The position numbers and the translations under genes are program-made. Positions 9,105 through 35,077 of a stretch of 64,000 nt of DNA are shown one piece after another. This stretch comes from Verrucomicrobiota bacterium (lineage in GTDB: Bacteria; Verrucomicrobiota; Verrucomicrobiia; Limisphaerales; Palsa-1400). Below the pieces are notes generated by a model, which was given only the letters and a program-made list of their open reading frames with translations, did not search any database and was not told where the DNA came from. The number at the start of each line of letters is the position of its first letter. The first letter of the stretch is position 1. The DNA lies in the NCBI GenBank assembly GCA_049513975.1, contig JBEKVM010000004.1, positions 46,311 through 110,310 on the forward strand, read 5' to 3'.

Positions 9105-10436
9105 ATGAAAAAATTCTTCGCTTCGGTTGGTTTAGCCGCGCTTGGCGCGTCAACATTGCAGGCCCAATATGCCCCCGGCATCACGCCTGACCAAACAGCC
9201 AACCCGCGGGGCTGGTCGGTGGCCGCGGCGTTGCGCGGTTTTTATGACGACAACTACCTGACGCTGCCCAACGGGCTGGCGCGCTCCAGCTATGGCACGG
9301 AGGTGAGTCCATCGGCCACGTTCAACCACACTGTCAACAACACCACGATCACCCTCAGTTACGTATATGACTGGCGCTACTATGAAACGACCAGCACCTC
9401 GCAGTCGTCGCACCAATTCAACGGCGACGTAAAGCAGAACTTCTCCGAGCGCTTCAGCATGCGGGCCAGCGACTCCTTCGTCATCGCCCAGGAGCCGACG
9501 GTGATTGACACGGCGATCATTTCTTCCCCGTTGTACACCGAGGGGAACAATGTGCATAATACCGGCACGCTCTCTGCCACCGCCGGATTGACCCCCAAGC
9601 TGGATTTGCAGGCGAGCTACGCCAACAACCTTTACGCCTATGAGCAGACGTTCGGCGACGTTTACAATCCCAATCCGGCGGTAAATCCCCTGACGCCCAG
9701 CCGTTCGGCCATATTGGACCGGATGGAGCAACTGGCCACGCTGAATCTGAACTGGAAAATCCTGAGCGAACTGACCGGGGTTTTAGGCTATTCTTACGGG
9801 CATGTGGGTTACACCAGCCCGGAACCGATTATTTTCGCCGGGGCGCCACCCCAGACCTTTGGCAATCCGGCCAATGTATTAAGCAAGATCCGCGACAACG
9901 ATTCGCATTTCTTTTTTGTCGGGGCAGACGAGGCCTTTACGTCGCAATTGAACGGTTCCATCCGGGTGGGGGGCGAATATCTGGATTATTACAACGTGCA
10001 TTCGTCCGACACGTCGCCCTACGTGGACGCCAGCCTGACGTGGACGTACATGAAGGAATCTTACCTGCAGAGCGGGGTCATGCACCAACACAGCGCGACG
10101 GACGTGACGGGCGGAATCCCGCCCACCACGGGACCCAACGCGGGAAAGCCGGTCTTGGACGCGGAGACGACGGCGGCTTACCTGTCGGTGAACCAAAAGA
10201 TAGCCGGGGGATTCACCGGCGGCCTGCTGGGCCAGTTCCAGCACTCGGCGTTCAACGGAGGCACGGTGAACTCGGAATCGGAAGACTTCTTCATCGTGGG
10301 CATGAACTTTGCGTACCGTTTCACCCCGTATTTCGGAGCTGAAGCCGGATACAACTGGAACAAACTGGTGTCGGATGTTTCCGGCCGCGATTATACGCGC
10401 AACATGGTTTACCTCGGAGTCCGGGCCACATATTGA
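9105..10436 (+). CDS. Outer-membrane beta-barrel protein of polysaccharide-export loci (BBP2/EpsL-like)
   Basis: Signal peptide MKKFFASVGLAALGASTLQA; alternating beta-strand pattern; C-terminal YLGVRATY; lies just before wzc/wza. Confidence 0.72.
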   Translation: MKKFFASVGLAALGASTLQAQYAPGITPDQTANPRGWSVAAALRGFYDDNYLTLPNGLARSSYGTEVSPSATFNHTVNNTTITLSYVYDWRYYETTSTSQSSHQFNGDVKQNFSERFSMRASDSFVIAQEPTVIDTAIISSPLYTEGNNVHNTGTLSATAGLTPKLDLQASYANNLYAYEQTFGDVYNPNPAVNPLTPSRSAILDRMEQLATLNLNWKILSELTGVLGYSYGHVGYTSPEPIIFAGAPPQTFGNPANVLSKIRDNDSHFFFVGADEAFTSQLNGSIRVGGEYLDYYNVHSSDTSPYVDASLTWTYMKESYLQSGVMHQHSATDVTGGIPPTTGPNAGKPVLDAETTAAYLSVNQKIAGGFTGGLLGQFQHSAFNGGTVNSESEDFFIVGMNFAYRFTPYFGAEAGYNWNKLVSDVSGRDYTRNMVYLGVRATY

Positions 10437-10458
10437 ACATAAATTCGCGCTTTAGGTC

Positions 10459-10505
10459 AGAAAGCTAGAACGTAGCGAATGAGTACGCTCTAGCTTTCTT
10501 TTTTT
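10459..10505 (+). terminator. Intrinsic terminator-like hairpin immediately before wzc
   Basis: AGAAAGCTAGA (10459-10469) pairs with TCTAGCTTTCT (10489-10499), inner CGTA/TACG pairing, followed by a T run. Confidence 0.65.
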
Positions 10506-10508
10506 ATT

Positions 10509-12689
10509 ATGGATACCGCAGCAACAACAGACAGCCCGGTGGCGAGCCTCCATTTTTTGGACTACTGGCGGGTGATCCGGATGCGCAAGAGCCTGATTCT
10601 GACGGTTTTCCTGCTGTGCGTGATCACCAGTTCGATTCTGACCTATTGCCTGCCCAAGCAGTATTCCAGCACCGTCCGAATTGAGGTGCAGAAAGACGCG
10701 CCGGAGGTGAACATAATAGGGAACCAGGCCGGCCTGCAGAGCTGGGATCCTTACTACCTGACCACCCAGTTTCGCATCATCACCTCGTGGGGAATTCTGG
10801 ACACGGTGATCAGCAACCTGAATCTGCGGCATGTCTTTGCCGAGCAGGATCAGGCGGGGGAGGCGGACTGGACTCCGGACCAGGCTTACGGCTATTTGTA
10901 TAAGAGAGTCGGGGTTGACCAGACGCGCGGCACCAGCTTGATTGAAATTGCGGTCAGGAATTCCGACCCCAAATGGGCGGCGGACATCGCCAACAAAATT
11001 GCCGAGGTCTATAAGGAATACCGCAAGGCATCGTGGCTGGGCGACCGCAACCGGGGCATCGAAGGCCTGAGAGGGTCATTGATCACCAATCAGGCAGCGC
11101 TGCTCGTCAAGCAAACCAATTTGGACAACCTGCGCTCCAACTTGAACGTGACGGAGATGGAAAACAATCCCAACGCCCAGGCCTCCATTATTGTCGAAAC
11201 CATGCGGGCCCTGGAAAACCGCCGCATTGACGCGAGGTGGGATTACCAGGACCACTCCGACACCCAGAGCAATCTGTTGATCCTGCAGACCAACGGGCTT
11301 CTGCGTGAGGCGCTGGGGACGGCGATGTATCGCAACTTGGATCCCGAATTGGCCATCAAAGCCTCGGATCTCTCCCGCGCCAAGAATCAATTCACGGAGG
11401 CGCAGAACATGGGCTACGGCCCCGAACATCGCATGTATGTCACGGCGCTCAGGGATTTGGAGCAGGCCAGCAATGCCTATGAGGAAAAGATCAAAGGAAT
11501 CATGGTCGGTCTCGCCTCCCTGGTCAACCATGACCGGGGGCTGCTGGAATTGATCGAGAATGAAGAAAACCGCACGAAGGCGGATGCCATCCAGGAAGCC
11601 ATTTCCAACCGCGACTACGTCTCGGCCAAGCGCGATCTGGAAAACACCCAGCGGGTGGTGGATGATTTACACCGGCTCTTGATTGAACAAGAGGCGGAAG
11701 CCAAACAGCCGACCGAACGCTCCGTCGTCGTGCATGACCCGGCCCGGATGAACAAAAGCCCCGTCAGCCCCAAACCGTTCATCATCATACCGGTCGGAAT
11801 CGTCATGGGTCTGGTGGTCGGGCTGGGCATGGCCTTCTTCGTCGAATACCTGGATACCAGTGTCAAGACCATTGATGATGTGGAGCGTTCGCTGCAAGCG
11901 CCGGTGCTGGGAGTCATTCCCCAGAACGTGGGCAATGTGCTGGACGACGGGCCGGAAAGCCCGCACGCGGAGGCCTACCGGGTCTTGCGCACCAATCTTT
12001 TGTTCGGGCGCAAGAATGAAGACTGGACCACGATAACGGTGCTGAGCGGCGGGGCCGGGGAAGGCAAAACCACCACCCTGTTCAACCTGGCCACCGTCTT
12101 TGCCCAGAACGGCCAGCGCATTTTGATTGTGGATTCGGACTTGCGCCGCCCGAGCATTCACCGGATGCTGCGCGCCAGCAACACCACCGGGCTGACCGAT
12201 TTGCTCCTCAACAAACAGATCACCCTCGAACAAGTGATCCAGAAGACCAAGCTGCCCACCCTGGATTTTCTGCCCAGCGGCAAGCTGCCCAGCAGTTCCA
12301 TGAGCATTTTGGGTTCCGTGCAGATGAAAGAAATTGTCCGCGACCTCAAGCGCCGTTACGACTTTATCTTCTTCGATTCCCCACCGCTGCTGGGCGTGAG
12401 CGATGCCTCCATCCTGGCGAGCGAAATGGACATGGTGCTGCAAGTCATCCAGTACCGGCGTTACCCGCAGCCCATGACGTTGCGGGCCAAGCAGATGATC
12501 CAAAAAGTGGGCGGCAACCTTTTGGGCCTGGTGCTCAACAACATCAACATGAGCCAGGATGAGAATTATTACTATTACAGCGGTTACTACGAGTACGAAT
12601 ACCGGTCTTCCAGAAACGAGCCGACCGTGGTGCAACTCAGCGACGCCGCGGCCAAAGCGGCCAAAATAGACATCAAACAGAAGTATTGA
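10509..12689 (+). CDS. wzc: Polysaccharide co-polymerase / BY-kinase (Wzc/GumC-CapB)
   Basis: Two TMs flanking a coiled-coil periplasmic region, AEAYRVLRTNL, Walker A GAGEGKTT, DSDLRRP, DSPP, C-terminal Tyr cluster NYYYYSGYYEYEY. Confidence 0.95.
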   Translation: MDTAATTDSPVASLHFLDYWRVIRMRKSLILTVFLLCVITSSILTYCLPKQYSSTVRIEVQKDAPEVNIIGNQAGLQSWDPYYLTTQFRIITSWGILDTVISNLNLRHVFAEQDQAGEADWTPDQAYGYLYKRVGVDQTRGTSLIEIAVRNSDPKWAADIANKIAEVYKEYRKASWLGDRNRGIEGLRGSLITNQAALLVKQTNLDNLRSNLNVTEMENNPNAQASIIVETMRALENRRIDARWDYQDHSDTQSNLLILQTNGLLREALGTAMYRNLDPELAIKASDLSRAKNQFTEAQNMGYGPEHRMYVTALRDLEQASNAYEEKIKGIMVGLASLVNHDRGLLELIENEENRTKADAIQEAISNRDYVSAKRDLENTQRVVDDLHRLLIEQEAEAKQPTERSVVVHDPARMNKSPVSPKPFIIIPVGIVMGLVVGLGMAFFVEYLDTSVKTIDDVERSLQAPVLGVIPQNVGNVLDDGPESPHAEAYRVLRTNLLFGRKNEDWTTITVLSGGAGEGKTTTLFNLATVFAQNGQRILIVDSDLRRPSIHRMLRASNTTGLTDLLLNKQITLEQVIQKTKLPTLDFLPSGKLPSSSMSILGSVQMKEIVRDLKRRYDFIFFDSPPLLGVSDASILASEMDMVLQVIQYRRYPQPMTLRAKQMIQKVGGNLLGLVLNNINMSQDENYYYYSGYYEYEYRSSRNEPTVVQLSDAAAKAAKIDIKQKY

Positions 12690-28507: not shown

Positions 28508-30938
28508 GGAGGAAGGGAGGCGCGGGCCGGGCCGGGTGCGCGGCGAAAAACTTTCGGATTTCACCGGCCGGGTCCGGGGCGGCCAGTTCCGCCGGAGACT
28601 GGTCGTACCAATCGCGCGGCAGATGGCTGGCGTAGGGTTCCTGGAGAAAACGCGCGCAGAGCAGCGCGATCACGCCGCAATCCGTTTCGCCGCGGATCAG
28701 CCGGCCCGCCGCCTGCACGACGCGCGTCATGCCCGGTTGCAGGTAGGCATACTCAAACCCCGCCTGCTCGGTTTCTTCAAAATAGCGGCGCAACAATTCG
28801 CGCTCGAAGGAGACTTGCGGCAGCGCGGGCGAGACAATGAAAACGGCGGAAAGGAGTTCGCCCGGATAATCCACCCCTTCGGCATACATCCCGCCCAGAA
28901 CGGCCAGGAGCAGGATCCCCTCCGGCGGCGGCGCGGCCAGTTCCTGGAAAATGCGGCGGCGCTCCGCTTCGGAAAAGTTGGCGCGCTGCGCCAGCACCCG
29001 GGCGCGCGTGGCCGGCAAGCGCGCGGCCACTTTTTCCAGGAATTGATAGCTGGGAAAAAGCACCAGGGCGTTGCCGGGCTGGGCGCCGGACATCTCCGCA
29101 ATCAGCCGGGCAATCGGGGCAAAATTCTGCTCCCGGTGGGCGAAGGCGGTGCGCACCTGCGGCAAAATCAGGATCTTCCGGTTTTCCCGCGGGAACGGCG
29201 GAGGCAGCGAAATGGCGCGCGTCCGCTCCGCCTCCAAACCGAGGGTGCGGCGGATGACCTCCACGGGAGAAAGCGTCGCGGAGAGGAGGGTGGTGGAGGC
29301 GGCGGCGCGAAAGACCGGAGCGAGCGGGCGCGCCGGATCCAGACACACCAGGGCCAGGCGCACCCCGGCCGGGCGCTGTTCCACCACACAGGTGAAGCCG
29401 GGGCCGAAGAGGTTCAACACGGTGATAAAGCGCTGCCAGACGAAGTGAATGTCAACAATCGGATCGTCCGGCAGGGCCAGCCGGGCCTCGCGCTTCCAGG
29501 AAAGGTAACGGACGAAGTTGGGCTCCCAAACCTGCCACAGCGCGCGCAAGGCTTCGGCGGGCGGATCCGTTTCCGCCATCGGGCCGGGGCTGGCGGCGGC
29601 GGCGGTTTCGGCCAGCAGGGCGATGAGTTGGCCGAGGGTTCGGGAAAGGGTGTCGAACAATTCGCCGCTGTGCAGCAGGAGGCTGTCCTGCACCGCGCGG
29701 AACGATTCCTCCAAAAGTTCCGGCGAGAAGATCTGGCGGGCGCGGTCGGGCAAATTGTGGGCTTCGTCCACCAGCAGCACCGGCTCGTCCTCCGGCTCCA
29801 GGCGGCGCAAGGCGACCCCCGGCTCGAAGACGTAATTGTAATCCGCCACGATGGCGTCGGCGCGGCCCGCCAGTTCGAGCTGAACCTCGAAGGGACAGAC
29901 CCGCTCCTTTTTCGCCTCCGCAAAAACGGCGTCGGGGTCAAAATGGAAATGGCCGCGGCGGAGGCAGTCCAGGATTTTCGACCGCTCCATTTTTTCCGCA
30001 TAATCCCTGGCGTAGGGGCAAAAATCTTCGTGACAGAGCACGCGGTCGTTGGCGCACATTTTTTCCTTGGCCCGGATCTGCAAACTGCGGAAGGCGCCGT
30101 CCGGGTTCATGGCGCGGAGGGCGGAAACGGCCATGGTTTGCTGCAAGGTCTTGGAAGTCAGAAAGAACACCTGGCGCCCGGCGGCCAGTCCGTGGGCCAG
30201 GGCCGGGTGCAGGCTGGCGGCGGTTTTGCCCGATCCGGTGGGGGCTTCCGCGATGAGGTTTTCGCCCGCCGCCAACGCCCGCCGCACCGCCTCCATCATG
30301 ATTTTCTGGCCGGGCCGGGGCGCGGCGTGGGGAAAGGGCAGGCTGGCGGCGGCGGCCGCTTTTTGGCGGCGCATTTCCACCTCCGCCTGGCCGATGGCCA
30401 GGAGTTGCCGCAACCGCCGCTCCAGGCCGCGCTCCTCCTCCTCCTGGTCATAGGCGGCGGGAATGACCGATTCCTCCCCGCTGGCGAGGTCCACGTAAAT
30501 GAGCCGGCCCTGCACGGGGGAATTGCCAAGCCGGCGCCACAGATCGCAGTAAAGAAGAAGTTGGCGTTGGTGGCGGGCGAAGGCCGCGCCGCCCCGCCGT
30601 GTTTCCTGGCCCGGCAGAAAGGTGGATTTGAACTCCTCGATCAGCCACGCGCCGGAGGGTTGCCGCACGCAGCCATCCAGGCGGCCGGTAATCACCGCCG
30701 TCCAACCGTCAATCGGGACGCTGGCCTGCAGAGGGACCTCGCTGCGGTAGGCCGGTTGGGCCGCGCGGCGCTCCTCCAAAACGCGGCGGTGCAATTCCGC
30801 GCCCAGGCCGAGACGATGCCAGCCTTCGCCGCGCTCGAAGCCGATCCGGCCAAAGCCCTCCTCCCCGGCCAGTTCGCGCACGGAAACTTCCAGTGTTTTG
30901 CTTGCTTCGTCGAATTTCAAACGGCTACAGTTTAGCAA
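28494..30938 (-). CDS. DinG/XPD (Rad3) Fe-S helicase with N-terminal PD-(D/E)XK nuclease-like domain
   Basis: GRLDG..LIEEFKS; EAPTGSGKT; Cys residues in KMCANDRVLCHEDFCPY and VCPFE; LLVDEAHNL; SATLSP; QAAGRLIR. Confidence 0.9.
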   Translation of the reverse strand: MLNCSRLKFDEASKTLEVSVRELAGEEGFGRIGFERGEGWHRLGLGAELHRRVLEERRAAQPAYRSEVPLQASVPIDGWTAVITGRLDGCVRQPSGAWLIEEFKSTFLPGQETRRGGAAFARHQRQLLLYCDLWRRLGNSPVQGRLIYVDLASGEESVIPAAYDQEEEERGLERRLRQLLAIGQAEVEMRRQKAAAAASLPFPHAAPRPGQKIMMEAVRRALAAGENLIAEAPTGSGKTAASLHPALAHGLAAGRQVFFLTSKTLQQTMAVSALRAMNPDGAFRSLQIRAKEKMCANDRVLCHEDFCPYARDYAEKMERSKILDCLRRGHFHFDPDAVFAEAKKERVCPFEVQLELAGRADAIVADYNYVFEPGVALRRLEPEDEPVLLVDEAHNLPDRARQIFSPELLEESFRAVQDSLLLHSGELFDTLSRTLGQLIALLAETAAAASPGPMAETDPPAEALRALWQVWEPNFVRYLSWKREARLALPDDPIVDIHFVWQRFITVLNLFGPGFTCVVEQRPAGVRLALVCLDPARPLAPVFRAAASTTLLSATLSPVEVIRRTLGLEAERTRAISLPPPFPRENRKILILPQVRTAFAHREQNFAPIARLIAEMSGAQPGNALVLFPSYQFLEKVAARLPATRARVLAQRANFSEAERRRIFQELAAPPPEGILLLAVLGGMYAEGVDYPGELLSAVFIVSPALPQVSFERELLRRYFEETEQAGFEYAYLQPGMTRVVQAAGRLIRGETDCGVIALLCARFLQEPYASHLPRDWYDQSPAELAAPDPAGEIRKFFAAHPARPAPPFLLTSS

Positions 30939-30982
30939 AGCGGACGCCGCAAAAGAATTACTTTGCGCGCCGGAATTTTTTT

Positions 30983-31411
30983 ATGGCCGAATCGGTCTTT
31001 CGACACACGCACCGCGTGGTCTATGCGGAATGCACGGTGGGCAACCACGTTTATTACGCGCGCTACCTCGACATGCTGGAAGCGGCGCGCGGGGAATTCA
31101 TGCGCCAGCTCGGCTGCTCCGCGCGGCAATGGCAGGAGGCCGGCATCGCCTTTCCGGTCATCGGCGTGGAGATCGCCTACAAAGGGCCGGCGCGCTACGA
31201 CGACCTGCTCACCATCGAACTGTGGGTCACGGAAATGGGCGGCATCAGGATCAACGTCGGCTTCCGCATCCGCAACGCCAGCGGCGGATTGCTGGCCGAG
31301 GGCGTGACGCGCCACATCTGCGCGACGACGGATGAAAAGCCAAAACGCCTGCCCAAGGAGCTGATCGAAGCGCTGCGGCCGTTTTTGGGGCAAGCCGGTG
31401 TTGAAGCTTGA
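30983..31411 (+). CDS. Acyl-CoA thioesterase (YbgC/4HBT hotdog fold)
   Basis: RVVYAECTVGNHVYYARYLDMLEAARGE, YKGPARYDD. Confidence 0.88.
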   Translation: MAESVFRHTHRVVYAECTVGNHVYYARYLDMLEAARGEFMRQLGCSARQWQEAGIAFPVIGVEIAYKGPARYDDLLTIELWVTEMGGIRINVGFRIRNASGGLLAEGVTRHICATTDEKPKRLPKELIEALRPFLGQAGVEA

Positions 31412-31559
31412 TTCCATGAATTCATGGAAAGCTGCAATCTCAAAACAATCGCGCAGTTAACCTTTCCGTTCTGGGCGAGCACGCAGCGGCAGGGCGAGAC
31501 TGCGTCGAGACCTAACTCGATTTAATGTATCGGGCACATGACCCGACTCCACATTTTTC

Positions 31560-31588
31560 TTGACATATGAGGAGACTGAATTTATTCT
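31560..31588 (+). promoter_or_regulatory. Sigma-70 promoter with the -10 box inside a palindrome
   Basis: TTGACA, 17-bp spacer, TATTCT. Confidence 0.6.
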
Positions 31589-31625
31589 GCCCGCATTGCG
31601 GCTTTCAATGCGGGCAGAATAAATT
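31579..31625. repeat. Perfect 20-bp inverted repeat
   Basis: AATTTATTCTGCCCGCATTG / CAATGCGGGCAGAATAAATT with a 7-nt loop. Confidence 0.92.
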
Positions 31626-31689
31626 GTAGACCATTCAGATTAAAGCATTTTCAATATATTCACATTCGAGCATCTTCAATACAATTGCA

Positions 31690-31764
31690 GCCATGACGCC
31701 TTGCCATGACGCCTTGCCATGACGCCTTGCCATGACGCCTTGCCATGACGCCTTGCCATGACGC
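31690..31764. repeat. Tandem repeat (GCCATGACGCCTT) x5.8
   Basis: Five perfect 13-bp units plus a 10-bp partial unit, no spacers. Confidence 0.95.
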
Positions 31765-31945
31765 GATGAACTGGTTTGGCTTGTGTGGCCACAGTTTTGT
31801 TTAAACCGCCCTGGGGGAATACAGTCACGCCTCGACGGAGTCTCGCCCTTATAGTCCCTCCAAAGTTATTCATCGGCGGCTGTGGGGAGCCAACGGAACC
31901 ACTCCCCGCAGCCGATGGTGAATAACTTTGCGCCGCCAAAAAAAA

Positions 31946-33500
31946 TTGCCGTGAACAACTCAACTTTCACCCGCAGTATCCAGGTGAACACGCCTGGCCT
32001 GGAAGACGAATATCTCACCCTCAACGCGCGACGTTTTTCGGCAGAGTTTCGCTCCAGGCCAGGTGCCTTGATGCAAAGGAATTCTCAGAGCCCTTCGCCT
32101 GCCGGTCAAGCCGGCAGAGACGAACCATCTATAAGGCGTTCCATCCTTCAAGGCCCGCGTGTTCAACCTAACCAACCCATTAAACTAGGAATCAAAACAA
32201 GACTGCAACAAACTTCGCGGCCACCCTTGGCCTGGATTGGGCCCACAAAAAACACGATCTCTGGATTCAGCCCGCCGGCGGCGGCAAGCCCGAACACCGG
32301 GTGATCGAACAAACCGCCGCCGCCCTCCAGGAGTGGGTCGCGCAAATGCGCGCGCGTTTTCCCCAGGGGCGGATCGCCATCGCCATCGAAACCTCCCGCG
32401 GCGCGGTCATTTCCGCCCTGGCGGCTTACGATTTCATCGTCCTTTTCCCCGTCAACCCGGCCATGCTCTGCAGCTATCGAGAGGCCTTTTGCGTGAGCGG
32501 CGCCAAGGATGACCGGACCGAGGCCATGCTCCTGGAAGAGTATCTGCGCCTGCATTGGGCTAAACTTCGGCCTCTGGAACCGGACACCGAGCTGACGCGC
32601 AAACTGGGGGGACTGGTGGAAAACCGCCGAGGACTGGTGGATGAGCGCTCCCGTCTGGTCAATCAATTGCACAGCCTGGTAAAAACCTACTTTCCGCTGG
32701 TGGAAGCGCTCTTTGATGAGCTGACCACGCCACTGGCCGCGCACTTCCTGCTCCAGTGGCCCGATCTGGCCTCTGTCCAAAAAGCCGGACCGGCCTCCTT
32801 AAGGAAGTTCTTTTACGGCCACCATTGCCGCAGTGACAAAATCATGGAGGAACGTCTCCAAACCATCGCCCAAGCCCGGCCCTTGACCCAGGATGCGGCT
32901 CTGATCGAGCCGGCCGTGCTCAAAGCTCAGGCGCTGGCCGGGATGCTCCAAGTCCTGCACCAATCCATCGAGCAGATGGAAACTCTGATCGAGCAAACCA
33001 CCGACGCCCATCCCGACGCGGCCCTCTTCCGCAGCTTTCCGGCCGCCGGTCCTGCCCTGGCTCCGCGGCTGTTGGTGGCCTTTGGGACCAAGCGGGATCG
33101 TTTTGCCAGCGCCCAGGAAGTGCAGCAGTTCTATGGAATCGCACCGGTCAAGAAGCAAAGCGGCCAAAGCAAGGTCATTTCCATGCGCCACCGTTGCCCG
33201 AAATCTGGACGCCAAACTTTTCACGAAAACGCCGGCCACGCCGTCCGCCAGGAGGGCTGGGCCAAAAATGTTATGAGCAGCAGAGAGAACGAAAAAAAGG
33301 CCATCACGCCTCCGTGCGCGCGGTGGCCTTCAAACTGATGCGCATCTATTTCCGCTGCTGGAAAGACAGGAAATGCTATGACGCCGGCCTCTACGAAAAA
33401 GCCTTGGAAAAACACGGCAGCCCGCTCTCGGACCTGATGAAAAAGGCGGCGCTGGCGAAAGGCAAATAATTTTCAAAAAATATGTTGCCGGAACAACTCA
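31946..33500 (+). mobile_element. IS110-family element (boundaries approximate)
   Basis: Transposase preceded by about 240 bp of non-coding DNA; TTGCCG(T)GAACAACTCA occurs at both 31946-31962 and 33485-33500. Confidence 0.7.
32187..33469 (+). pseudogene. IS110 transposase (DEDD recombinase), probably inactivated
   Basis: GLDWAHKKHD, IAIETS, AKDDRTEA, GIAPVKKQSG; expected start reads AGG (32187) after an in-frame TAA; frameshift at A5 33264-33268 continues into ..RAVAFKLMRIYFRCWKD. Confidence 0.85.
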
Positions 33501-33583
33501 GAACTCTACCGTCACTGATTCGTTGCGGGAAGGAGCATTTTTCCATCACTCCACCACTCCATCACTCCGTTTCTCCGCCGCCC

Positions 33584-33775
33584 CGCGGGTCCCAGGCGTC
33601 GCGCAGGGCGTCGCCGGCGAAATTGAGGACGAGCCGGGTCAAAGGGGCGACCGTGGCTGTTGCAGGGGCAAAGCGGAACTGGCGTTCCGCACTCCAAGAC
33701 GCTTCGCGTTCAGGGTGCGCGTCCGAGTTGCCGACAGGTCTTGGAGTGCGGGCGCGAGAGCGCCGCTTTTCCGCT
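33584..33775. repeat. Direct repeat A: oppC 3'-end copy plus GGAGTGCGG REP
   Basis: About 190-bp unit repeated at 34774-34960; first 58 bp match the oppC tail. Confidence 0.85.
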
Positions 33776-33824
33776 CGCGCCCTACCAACCAGGACTAGGG
33801 CGAAACAGACTTATCGAGGATGGA

Positions 33825-34586
33825 TCAGGGAAAAACCAGGCGGATGGAGAGGGAGGCCGGAACGTGGCCGGCGGGCCAGTTGGTGGTTGGGTCGGCGTGA
33901 CTCAGCCAATTCGTGCGGAAACTGGCGCTGGATACTTGTTCAACACTGCCGTCACCGAGCAAAATACTTCCAGCGCCCGCAGTGTTTCCGGCTGAATGCA
34001 TCTTCGATGACCATGAGACGGGCTTGAATAATGAATTGGTCTGGATTGCCACGTCGTTCCCCTTTCCGCTTTCAGGTGAGAAACCGTAATAGCGGTAAGC
34101 CTCCCCGCCGTTGCCTAAATTGCGATCACCACCTTGGATTGACTGAGGATAGTTGTCGTTAGCGCTCACCCCCACAAAGTAAGAGAGGTGAGTGTTATCC
34201 TTGAAATCCGTGGTGAAGTTTGTTGCTGGCTCCCGTTCATCGGCCGGGCACACAACCAGTCTCGGAGATTGGCCCAACTCGTTGCTCACGATCGCGAAGT
34301 TGGTCCAGCAGATGGCACCCTGATCAGCATTGGTGAGAAAATCTCCCCATCCGCCTTTGGCCGCCGTCTGCTCGGCGGGGTTGCGACCGCCGTGATCCGC
34401 AGCCCAGACGCGATAACCCACGCCGATTACCTTGAGAACGTTACCGCAACTGATGCGGCTGCGTTGCTTCGTGTGCTGGAACCTCGGCAAAATCATTGAA
34501 GCCAGCACCACTGCTACGACCACAATCACGACGACCAATTCAATGCGAGTGAATGCGGACATATCGCGCATCGCTTTTTGTTTCAT
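33825..34586 (-). CDS. Prepilin-type N-terminal cleavage/methylation protein (pilin/pseudopilin-like)
   Basis: A|FTRIELVVVIVVVAVV with Glu at +5, CGNVLKVIGVG..WAADH, C-terminal GSILLGDGSV. Confidence 0.88.
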   Translation of the reverse strand: MKQKAMRDMSAFTRIELVVVIVVVAVVLASMILPRFQHTKQRSRISCGNVLKVIGVGYRVWAADHGGRNPAEQTAAKGGWGDFLTNADQGAICWTNFAIVSNELGQSPRLVVCPADEREPATNFTTDFKDNTHLSYFVGVSANDNYPQSIQGGDRNLGNGGEAYRYYGFSPESGKGNDVAIQTNSLFKPVSWSSKMHSAGNTAGAGSILLGDGSVEQVSSASFRTNWLSHADPTTNWPAGHVPASLSIRLVFP

Positions 34587-34672
34587 ACTGCCTCCAGGAG
34601 AAAGTCAAACACATTTCGCGGCGGAAAGCAATGGCAGAATGGAATTCTTTGAAAGGAACAGGAAGGAAATGG

Positions 34673-34740
34673 CCGCGAAGAGGCGCAAAAGGCGCAAAAA
34701 TGAATTCCGGTTTTGTGACTTTTGCGCTTTTTCGCGGCTA
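34673..34740. repeat. REP-like inverted pair, GCGCAAAAGGCGCAAAA family
   Basis: CCGCGAAGAGGCGCAAAAGGCGCAAAA ... TTTTGTGACTTTTGCGCTTTTTCGCGG. Confidence 0.65.
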
Positions 34741-34760
34741 TTCGGTTTTCTCCGTTTCCC

Positions 34761-34960
34761 TCAATCCTCCGTGCGCGGGTCCCAGGCGTCGGGCAGGGCG
34801 TCGCCGGCGAAATTGAGGGCGAGCAGGGTCAATGGGGCGACCATGGCTGCTGCAGGGGCAAAGCGGAACTGGCGTTCCGCACTCCAAGACGCTTCGCGTT
34901 GAGGGGCGCGGAGGAGGTGCCGACGGGTCTTGGAGTGCGGGCGCGAAAGGGCCGCTTTCC
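34761..34960. repeat. Direct repeat B: oppC 3'-end copy (71 bp incl. stop) plus REP
   Basis: 34761-34831 matches 35078-35148 at 68/71 positions. Confidence 0.9.
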
Positions 34961-35077
34961 CGCTCAAATAACAAATACGCAATGGCAAATTCCCGATTCC
35001 CGCCCTGGAGTACTACCTCACGGGTTTTCAGAATTGAAAATTGGCGATTGAAAATCGGTCATTGGTAATTGACTGCC

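What the first reader, a model, noticed from the sequence alone, without database searches (positions are those of the whole stretch)
31871..32186. Candidate IS110 bridge-RNA region and an internal copy of the element's right end
Known: IS110 elements encode a bridge RNA in the non-coding end that specifies target and donor. Seen: about 240-310 nt upstream of the transposase with stems (CCTGGCCTGGA/TCCAGGCCAGG; CTGCCGG/CCGGCAG; 31871-31917 hairpin). The motif AATAA.TTT..A-run..TTGCCG(T)GAACAACTCA occurs both here (to 31962) and after the transposase (to 33500). This suggests either a preserved right-end/left-end junction (tandem insertion or circle re-integration) or a donor-guide segment. REP neighbours raise the possibility of REP targeting, as for IS621.
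Basis: partly seen in the sequence, partly recalled or inferred. Interest (0 to 1): 0.55.

Follow-up and report, generated by a model that had tools for sequence, protein, structure and literature searches.

The report
Decayed IS110 element with bridge RNA
The flagged stretch is the guide-RNA ("bridge RNA") end of an IS110-type jumping gene that landed in a short repeated sequence of an uncultured peat Verrucomicrobium; it works like the known IS621 system and this copy is already decaying, so it is a solid but ordinary find.

Summary
Relatives fix the ends. The element runs from 31850 to 33505, between two copies of a CT core (31848-49 and 33506-07). Joining the flanks restores an intact REP-like repeat that has more than 50 copies in this genome.

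The 337-nt left end folds as a 5' hairpin (31861-31930) followed by two stem-loops with internal loops. Across 8 relatives, 93% of cells pair and 29 of 63 pairs show compensatory changes.

The loop sequences follow the published bridge-RNA rule. In 11 of 12 relatives the right target guide matches its own flank 7/7. Non-cognate pairs reach 7/7 in 1.2% of cases. The right donor guide covaries with the left-end sequence across clades.

The "internal copy of the right end" is real (z = 8.4). It is a roughly 50-nt paralogous segment shared by related elements. It is neither a junction specific to this copy nor the donor guide, which lies at 32084-94 and 32129-35.

This copy is decaying. Its start codon ATG has become AGG, a catalytic Asp has become Glu, this assembly carries a 1-nt deletion, and its guides have 3 mismatches to its own site. 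It is a new member of a known kind.

The parts
31813..31847 (+). REP-like repeat unit. Its last 7-9 nt form the left half of the insertion target.
   Evidence: At least 13 copies were found by DNA search and 52 anchored copies by genome census. Uninterrupted copies continue exactly as the window's right flank does.
31848..31849 (+). Left copy of the CT core dinucleotide.
   Evidence: In 5 G003 copies and in L019, L020, L059 and others, the flanks diverge immediately to the left of this CT.
31850..33505 (+). Body of the IS110-group insertion sequence. It is 1656 bp, or 1658 bp with one core.
   Evidence: Ends were defined by multi-copy relatives and full-length homologs.
31850..31855 (+). -10 half (TATAGT) of the split promoter that forms only in the circular junction.
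   Evidence: Read directly from the sequence. It lies 17 nt after the -35 box once the right end, core and left end are joined. The arrangement is conserved in L019, L020 and L059. No sigma-70 site was found on the + strand of the integrated left end.
31861..31930 (+). 5' stem-loop of the bridge RNA. The 12-bp basal arms are sequence-invariant and the inner stem is variable.
   Evidence: dG -46.4 kcal/mol, z = -7.8. Helices 1-2 have 23 pairs, 7 of them with compensatory changes. The hairpin is present in about 20 of 32 order-level homologs.
31906..31962 (+). Segment of the left end that is paralogous to the transposase 3' end and right end (33451-33500).
   Evidence: Collinear alignments in the window, G003, L090, L093, L095 and L096, z = 5-8.
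31985..32165 (+). Guide-bearing core of the bridge RNA. An outer helix (31985-91 with 32159-65) encloses the target-binding and donor-binding stem-loops.
   Evidence: RNAalifold consensus and pair counts; column-to-coordinate map.
32012..32021 (+). Left target guide, on the 5' side of the first internal loop.
   Evidence: 8 of 9 identical to the top strand of the left flank plus core. Relatives score 9, 9, 9, 8, 8, 8 and 7 of 9.
32038..32048 (+). Right target guide (32038-44), followed by 4 nt complementary to the last bases of the right end (handshake-like).
   Evidence: 5 of 7 match the reverse complement of core plus right flank here. 11 of 12 relatives match 7/7.
32084..32094 (+). Left donor guide, on the 5' side of the second internal loop.
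   Evidence: 9 of 11 identical to the last 11 nt of the right end including the core.
32099..32117 (+).
   Evidence: Its sequence varies among relatives.
32129..32136 (+). Right donor guide. It is the reverse complement of the core plus the first 5 nt of the left end, plus 1 nt of the left flank.
   Evidence: Exact 7-8 nt match. It covaries with the left-end sequence across four clades.
32187..33469 (+). IS110-family transposase gene, decayed. The start codon position reads AGG (32187-89). Codon 32520-22 is Glu where relatives have Asp. There is a 1-nt deletion in the A-run 33264-68. The stop codon is at 33467-69.
   Evidence: Pfam PF01548 and PF02371. Frameshift. L088, the same locus in another sample, has A6 and an open 428-codon frame. 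Relatives have ATG at the start position. The catalytic motif ends in Asp-Ala in the 26 homologs where it was found.
33485..33490 (+). -35 half of the split junction promoter, in the 36-nt right end.
   Evidence: Read directly from the sequence. It is conserved as a near-consensus -35 box in relatives.
33506..33507 (+). Right copy of the CT core.
   Evidence: Right ends of 6 G003 copies and of L019, L020, L059 and L090-L096 end here and then diverge.
33508..33516 (+). Right half of the target, continuing the REP-like unit.
   Evidence: Matches the continuation of uninterrupted REP copies.

Best explanation
Window 31850-33505 is one copy of an IS110-group insertion sequence. It inserted by RNA-guided recombination at a CT core inside a REP-like repeat.

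The 337-nt left end encodes a bridge RNA with three parts: a long 5' stem-loop, a target-binding stem-loop and a donor-binding stem-loop. The internal loop of the target-binding stem-loop carries the left and right target guides. The internal loop of the donor-binding stem-loop carries guides for the element's own right and left ends.

When the element circularises, the right end supplies a -35 box and the left end a -10 box with a 17-nt spacer. Transcription would then start at the foot of the 5' hairpin.

Shown here:
- the ends and the reconstructed target;
- the conserved structure;
- guide/flank and guide/end covariation in relatives.

Inferred from the IS621 model:
- transcription from the junction promoter;
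- binding of the RNA by the recombinase;
- strand exchange at the core.

This copy is a fossil or near-fossil. The start codon is lost, the fourth DEDD residue is changed, one assembly carries a frameshift, and the guides have 3 mismatches to the occupied site.

The right-end-like motif in the left end is one half of an old internal duplication. The transposase 3' end plus right end is paralogous to the hairpin 3' arm plus linker. The duplication is shared by the whole 81-86% clade and its role is unknown.
For: Ends:
- Five left and six right junctions of a multi-copy relative in G003 diverge exactly outside the core and the conserved end sequences.
- Full-length homologs L019, L020 and L059 agree.

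Target:
- The joined flanks equal uninterrupted REP copies.

Protein:
- PF01548 and PF02371.
- NF033542 "IS110 family RNA-guided transposase", 120.5 bits.
- IS621 in the PDB, E = 6e-6.

Structure:
- 63 pairs, 93.3% of cells paired against 37-45% in slid controls.
- 29 compensatory pairs against 6-11 in slid controls, and 0 of 500 shuffles as high.

Guides:
- Right target guide: 11 of 12 cognate pairs match 7/7; 1.2% of non-cognate pairs do.
- Left target guide: 8 of 15 cognate pairs score at least 8/9; 1.8% of non-cognate pairs do.
- Right donor guide: covaries with four different left-end sequences.

The pairing rule was taken from PMC11208160.

Decay.

Paralogy.
Against:
- The window's own guides fit its site worse than those of any relative with both flanks: 8/9 and 5/7.
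- The left donor guide matches only 9/11, and matches poorly next to the core in all relatives.
- Three relatives need a 1-2 nt register shift or bulge in the left target guide (L020, L059, L061).
- No Rfam family matched.
- An outer helix enclosing both loops is not recalled for IS621 (from memory; not checked in the papers read here).
Confidence: 0.9

Rival explanations
1. The 31861-31930 hairpin is a host REP or MITE-like repeat lying outside the element. The real left end would lie near 31963, so the 17-mer and 16-mer would be a direct repeat flanking a roughly 1.54-kb element.
For: The hairpin recurs elsewhere in the genome (C87, C9, C13). The near-identical 16/17-mers bracket a length typical of IS110 elements.
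Against: - All four hairpin copies in G000 belong to IS110 left ends or their remnants.
- In G003 the flanks of five copies diverge to the left of the hairpin, not after it.
- The right donor guide pairs with the sequence to the left of the hairpin and covaries with it.
- The right-end copy stops 5 nt before the real crossover.
Confidence: 0.02
2. The right-end-like motif at 31920-31962 is a junction retained from a tandem insertion or circle re-integration in this particular copy.
For: High similarity within this copy, score 33, z = 8.4.
Against: - The same collinear segment is found in related elements at other sites and in other genomes (G003, L090, L093, L095, L096).
- No copy of the left-end start follows it.
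- The left-end segment of one element matches the right ends of other elements about as well as its own.
Confidence: 0.04
3. The right-end-like motif is an extra donor guide, or another RNA or DNA site that recognises the right end. Examples would be a second recombinase or host-factor binding site, or part of a structural switch with the 12-nt copy of the hairpin arm at the transposase stop codon.
For: - The segment is conserved in the 81-86% clade.
- The 12-mer at the stop codon is kept in clades whose proteins are only 33% identical (L002, L086).
- That 12-mer is complementary to the 5' arm of the left-end hairpin. Together they form an 11-12 bp inverted repeat that brackets the junction promoter and the crossover.
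Against: - No within-element covariation between the left-end and right-end copies.
- RNAalifold finds no conserved structure in the linker.
- The right-end copy is absent in several clades that keep the hairpin (L060-L068).
Confidence: 0.25
4. The conserved structure is only an mRNA leader or translational control element of the transposase, not a guide RNA.
For: It lies directly upstream of the gene. The outer helix ends about 20 nt before the start codon position.
Against: The loop sequences track the flanking target DNA and the element's ends across many relatives. A leader has no reason to do this.
Confidence: 0.02

Closest known systems
IS621 of E. coli (IS110 group) and its bridge RNA (Durrant et al. 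2024, PMC11208160; structures 8wt6-8wt9)
   Same: - DEDD plus Ser recombinase.
- Long left end that encodes an RNA with a 5' stem-loop, then a target loop, then a donor loop.
[quoted passage not shown]
- CT core included in each pairing.
- Promoter split across the circle junction.
- Insertion into REP sequences.
   Different: - The protein is only distantly related (E = 6e-6 over the C-terminal domain).
- The 5' stem-loop is about 70 nt, with sequence-invariant 12-bp arms.
- A 7-bp outer helix encloses both guide loops.
- A roughly 50-nt paralog of the right end lies between the hairpin and the loops.
- The host is an uncultured Verrucomicrobium.
ISPpu10 of Pseudomonas putida (bioRxiv 10.64898/2026.03.19.712850)
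   Same: An IS110 element whose insertions all fall in one conserved REP-type intergenic repeat. The guided target lies next to a GC-rich palindrome.
   Different: The role of the target stem-loop was not tested here. In the window the REP arm directly 5' of the target has its partner about 340 bp away (31488-31509). The sequences are unrelated.
IS1111 group / seekRNA elements
   Same: Same recombinase family. Sub-terminal inverted repeats of 7-17 bp are their hallmark, and this clade has an 11-12 bp inverted repeat between the right end and the left end.
   Different: Here the guide RNA is in the left end and the right end is only 36 nt, which is the IS110-group layout. The repeats sit asymmetrically: 12 nt from the core on the left and about 31-42 nt from it on the right.

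Membership tests
IS110 family insertion sequence (IS110 group) | N-terminal DEDD (RuvC-like) domain and C-terminal Tnp domain with a catalytic Ser. | tested here: met
   PF01548 (E = 2.6e-23) and PF02371 (E = 2.1e-12). The Gln-Ser-Gly motif is present.
IS110 family insertion sequence (IS110 group) | Intact catalytic tetrad and a translatable gene, meaning an active copy. | tested here: not met
   The fourth acidic residue is Glu, where the 26 homologs in which the motif was found have Asp. ATG has become AGG at the start position. There is a 1-nt deletion in this assembly but not in L088. The element belongs to the family by descent, but this copy is probably inactive.
IS110 family insertion sequence (IS110 group) | No terminal inverted repeats or long target duplication; a 2-nt core is present at both junctions. 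| tested here: met
   CT at 31848-49 and 33506-07. Flanks of many copies diverge right outside these positions.
IS110 family insertion sequence (IS110 group) | Long non-coding left end and short right end. | tested here: met
   The left end is 337 nt (31850-32186). The right end is 36 nt (33470-33505).
Bridge RNA | [quoted passage not shown] | tested here: met
   93% of cells paired, 29 of 63 pairs compensatory, slid controls far lower.
Bridge RNA | The first loop pairs with the target. The 5' side equals the top strand of the left target plus core. The 3' side equals the reverse complement of the core plus the right target. | tested here: met
   In relatives, 11 of 12 right guides match 7/7 and 8 of 15 left guides score at least 8/9, against under 2% for non-cognate pairs. 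This copy scores 8/9 and 5/7.
Bridge RNA | The second loop pairs with the element's own right end and left end around the core. | tested here: met
   The right donor guide is exact over 7-8 nt and covaries across four clades. The left donor guide matches 9/11.
Bridge RNA | The RNA is made, binds the recombinase and directs recombination. | not testable with these tools
No wet-lab data are available.
Bridge RNA | A promoter is reconstituted at the circle junction. | tested here: inconclusive
   By sequence, joining the ends gives a 4/6 -35 box, a 17-nt spacer and a 5/6 -10 box, and this is conserved in relatives. No circle or transcript was observed.
IS1111 group | Guide RNA in a long right end; short left end. 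| tested here: not met
   The right end is 36 nt and the structured RNA is in the left end.

The most novel reading that the evidence does not exclude
The 12-nt copy of the hairpin's 3' arm at the transposase stop codon may work together with the hairpin's 5' arm just inside the left end as a functional pair of sub-terminal inverted repeats. In the circular intermediate, which recent preprints report can be single-stranded, the 5' arm could pair either with the right-end copy, enclosing the crossover site and junction promoter, or with its own 3' arm. That would be a structural switch controlling donor recognition or bridge-RNA expression, and it would link the IS110 and IS1111 end architectures.
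Probability: 0.12. Interest if true: 0.55.

Novelty: new member of a known kind. Interest (0 to 1): 0.3.

Why it matters
- It shows the bridge-RNA mechanism in an IS110 clade found in 40 of the 400 other genomes sampled from this order. On an earlier scan note, not checked here, the host is an uncultured peat Verrucomicrobium.
- About 15 natural guide/target pairs illustrate the pairing rule without any experiment.
- It gives exact element boundaries and a REP-type target for annotating this genome.
- It documents how such an element decays.
- The intact 81-86% relatives are candidate compact programmable recombinases. They have an unusually long 5' hairpin and a helix that encloses both guide loops.
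- The mechanism itself has been known since 2024.

Tried and rejected
- Rfam scan of 30500-35000 at E <= 1 gave only chance miRNA hits.
- A single-protein pattern scan of genome contigs found only a 40% relative in Serratia oryzae.
- The interior of the G003 element is not in that assembly, so its target loop could not be read.
A metagenome scan replaced it.
It was rewritten to read everything from files. One search used faulty patterns and its numbers should be ignored.
- No covariance model was built, because the 330-position model would exceed the calibration limit. RNAalifold and pair counting were used instead.
- An internal sigma-70 promoter using the left-end copy of the -35 box was considered and rejected. 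No -10 box lies at a usable distance, and the scan found none on the + strand.
- The left-end linker as a second left donor guide was considered and rejected, because it shows no within-element covariation.

Full report
**What is in the window**

The frame 32184-33338 and a second frame ending at 33469 together encode an IS110-family transposase. Pfam finds DEDD_Tnp_IS110 and Transposase_20. NCBIfam's "IS110 family RNA-guided transposase" scores 120.5 bits. IS621 in the PDB matches at E = 6e-6. The element is single-copy in its genome. An earlier scan note (e1-5242857), not checked here, describes the organism as an uncultured peat Verrucomicrobium.

The 31871-31917 hairpin is the inner part of a 70-nt hairpin at 31861-31930, with dG -46.4 kcal/mol and z = -7.8.

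**Ends**

A search of the same taxonomic family found two full-length homologs, L019 and L020, at about 67-68% DNA identity. It also found a genome, G003, in which many contigs stop inside the two ends of a close relative.

- Five left junctions and six right junctions from G003 share sequence up to a fixed point and are unrelated beyond it.
- L019, L020, L059 and nine metagenome relatives give the same boundaries.
- In window coordinates: CT core at 31848-49, element body 31850-33505, CT core at 33506-07.
- The hairpin therefore lies inside the element, 12 nt from its left end.
- The four hairpin copies in this genome all belong to IS110 left ends or their remnants.

**Target**

The left flank is the 3' part of a REP-like repeat. 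Joining the left flank, one CT and the right flank reproduces the uninterrupted repeat as seen on other contigs. A census finds 52 anchored copies. Two main variants differ at the base right after the core, with 15 copies each.

**Structure of the left end**

Eight left ends were aligned; their proteins are 40-64% identical to the window's. RNAalifold gives a 5' hairpin, an outer 7-bp helix, and inside it two stem-loops with large internal loops.

- 93.3% of cells are standard pairs, against 37-45% when partners are slid by 1-3 columns.
- 29 of 63 pairs show changes on both sides, against 6-11 in slid controls.
- No shuffle out of 500 reaches these values.
- G-U wobbles in the outer helix point to an RNA-level structure.

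**Guides**

The published rule comes from PMC11208160 (read). [quoted passage not shown] The 3' side is the reverse complement of the core plus the right half-site.

Right target guide:
- 11 of 12 relatives with a known right flank match 7/7.
- 1.2% of non-cognate pairs match 7/7.

Left target guide:
- 8 of 15 relatives score at least 8/9 in a fixed register, against 1.8% of non-cognate pairs.
- Three more fit after a 1-2 nt shift or bulge.

Right donor guide:
- In the window it lies at 32129-35 and is an exact reverse complement of the core plus the first 5 nt of the left end.
- Across more distant clades it changes together with the left-end sequence, in four different pairs.
- It often extends 1-3 nt into the left flank.
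- The right target guide is likewise followed by bases complementary to the end of the right end. Both extensions fit the handshake guides described for IS621 (abstract of PMC13626964).

Left donor guide:
- It lies at 32084-94 and matches the right end 9/11.

**Junction promoter**

Joining the right end to the left end places a -35 box (33485-90) 17 nt before a -10 box (31850-55). Relatives keep this layout, with a better -35 box. The integrated left end has no + strand sigma-70 match. A start 5-9 nt after the -10 box would fall at the foot of the 5' hairpin. This step is inferred, not observed.

**State of this copy**

- Relatives at 81-86% identity start with ATG where the window has AGG (32187-89).
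- The 26 homologs in which the motif was found have Asp at the fourth DEDD position. The window and L088 have Glu (32520-22).
- The window has A5 at 33264-68, which breaks the frame. L088 is the same locus from another peat sample at 99.4% identity; it has A6 and an open 428-codon frame. The frameshift is therefore a strain variant or a homopolymer assembly error.
- The window's guides fit its own site less well than in any relative: 8/9 and 5/7.
- A perfectly matching, unoccupied REP copy exists on G000:C129.

**The right-end-like motif**

The similarity is significant in the window (score 33, z = 8.4). In the window, G003, L090, L093, L095 and L096 the alignment is collinear over roughly 50 nt. 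Element positions 57-113 align with the last five or so codons of the transposase, its stop codon, an A-run, the -35 box and the next 7-10 nt. The alignment ends 7 nt before the core.

- In 61-64% relatives only a 12-14-mer survives at the stop codon. It equals the 3' arm of the hairpin.
- The 12-mer is also present in the 33% relatives L002 and L086.
- It is absent in L060-L068.
- Left-end segments match the right ends of other elements about as well as their own.

I read this as an old partial duplication fixed in the clade. It is not a junction from a recent tandem insertion and it is not a guide. The right-end 12-mer and the hairpin's 5' arm form an 11-12 bp inverted repeat around the crossover. 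Its role is open.

**Verdict**

This is a correct call of an IS110 bridge-RNA region, now with exact ends, target, guides and covariation support. The element is a new, decayed member of a known kind.

Noticed in passing
G000:C9:20457-20847 (L003, about 1481-1871): An orphan 391-bp IS110 left end. It is 95% identical to the left end of the C87 element and covers its whole predicted bridge-RNA region, but no transposase gene follows. It may be a stand-alone guide RNA gene or a truncated element.
   Followed up: partly
G000:C87:about 10090-11680, minus strand (L002): A second IS110 element in the same genome. Its protein is 33% identical to the window's, yet it carries the same 5' hairpin arms and the same 12-mer at its stop codon. 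Its right donor guide matches its own, different left end. A 79-bp stub of this left end lies on C13:30535-30613.
   Followed up: partly
window 31488-31509, minus strand: An inverted copy of the same REP-like unit lies 340 bp upstream. It carries an unoccupied G-variant target that fits the element's right target guide better than the occupied site does.
   Followed up: partly
G000:C129, about 7050 (L009, about 1553-1575): An unoccupied REP copy that matches both target guides of the window element perfectly (9 nt and 7 nt).
   Followed up: partly
window 31694-31765: A 13-nt tandem array of about 6 units just left of the REP. The window and L088 differ at 31705, 31718 and 31731, exactly one repeat period apart. 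The units therefore vary between strains.
   Followed up: no
G003 contigs (L046-L053, L021, L031, L040): A multi-copy relative breaks the assembly at both of its ends, and its interior is missing from the genome bin. It inserts into a different palindromic repeat; arms containing CTTCGTT motifs are seen on both sides.
   Followed up: partly
L019:3080-3175 and L019:4459-4544: The G005 homolog has a tandem duplication around its stop codon, giving two copies of the 12-mer about 25 nt apart. A second hairpin copy lies about 3 kb downstream, which suggests a neighbouring element.
   Followed up: no
L078 (G077:C126): A relative with an in-frame stop codon in its transposase. Its target guides specify nearly the same REP-type site as the one the window element occupies; its right guide matches the window's right flank 7/7.
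   Followed up: no
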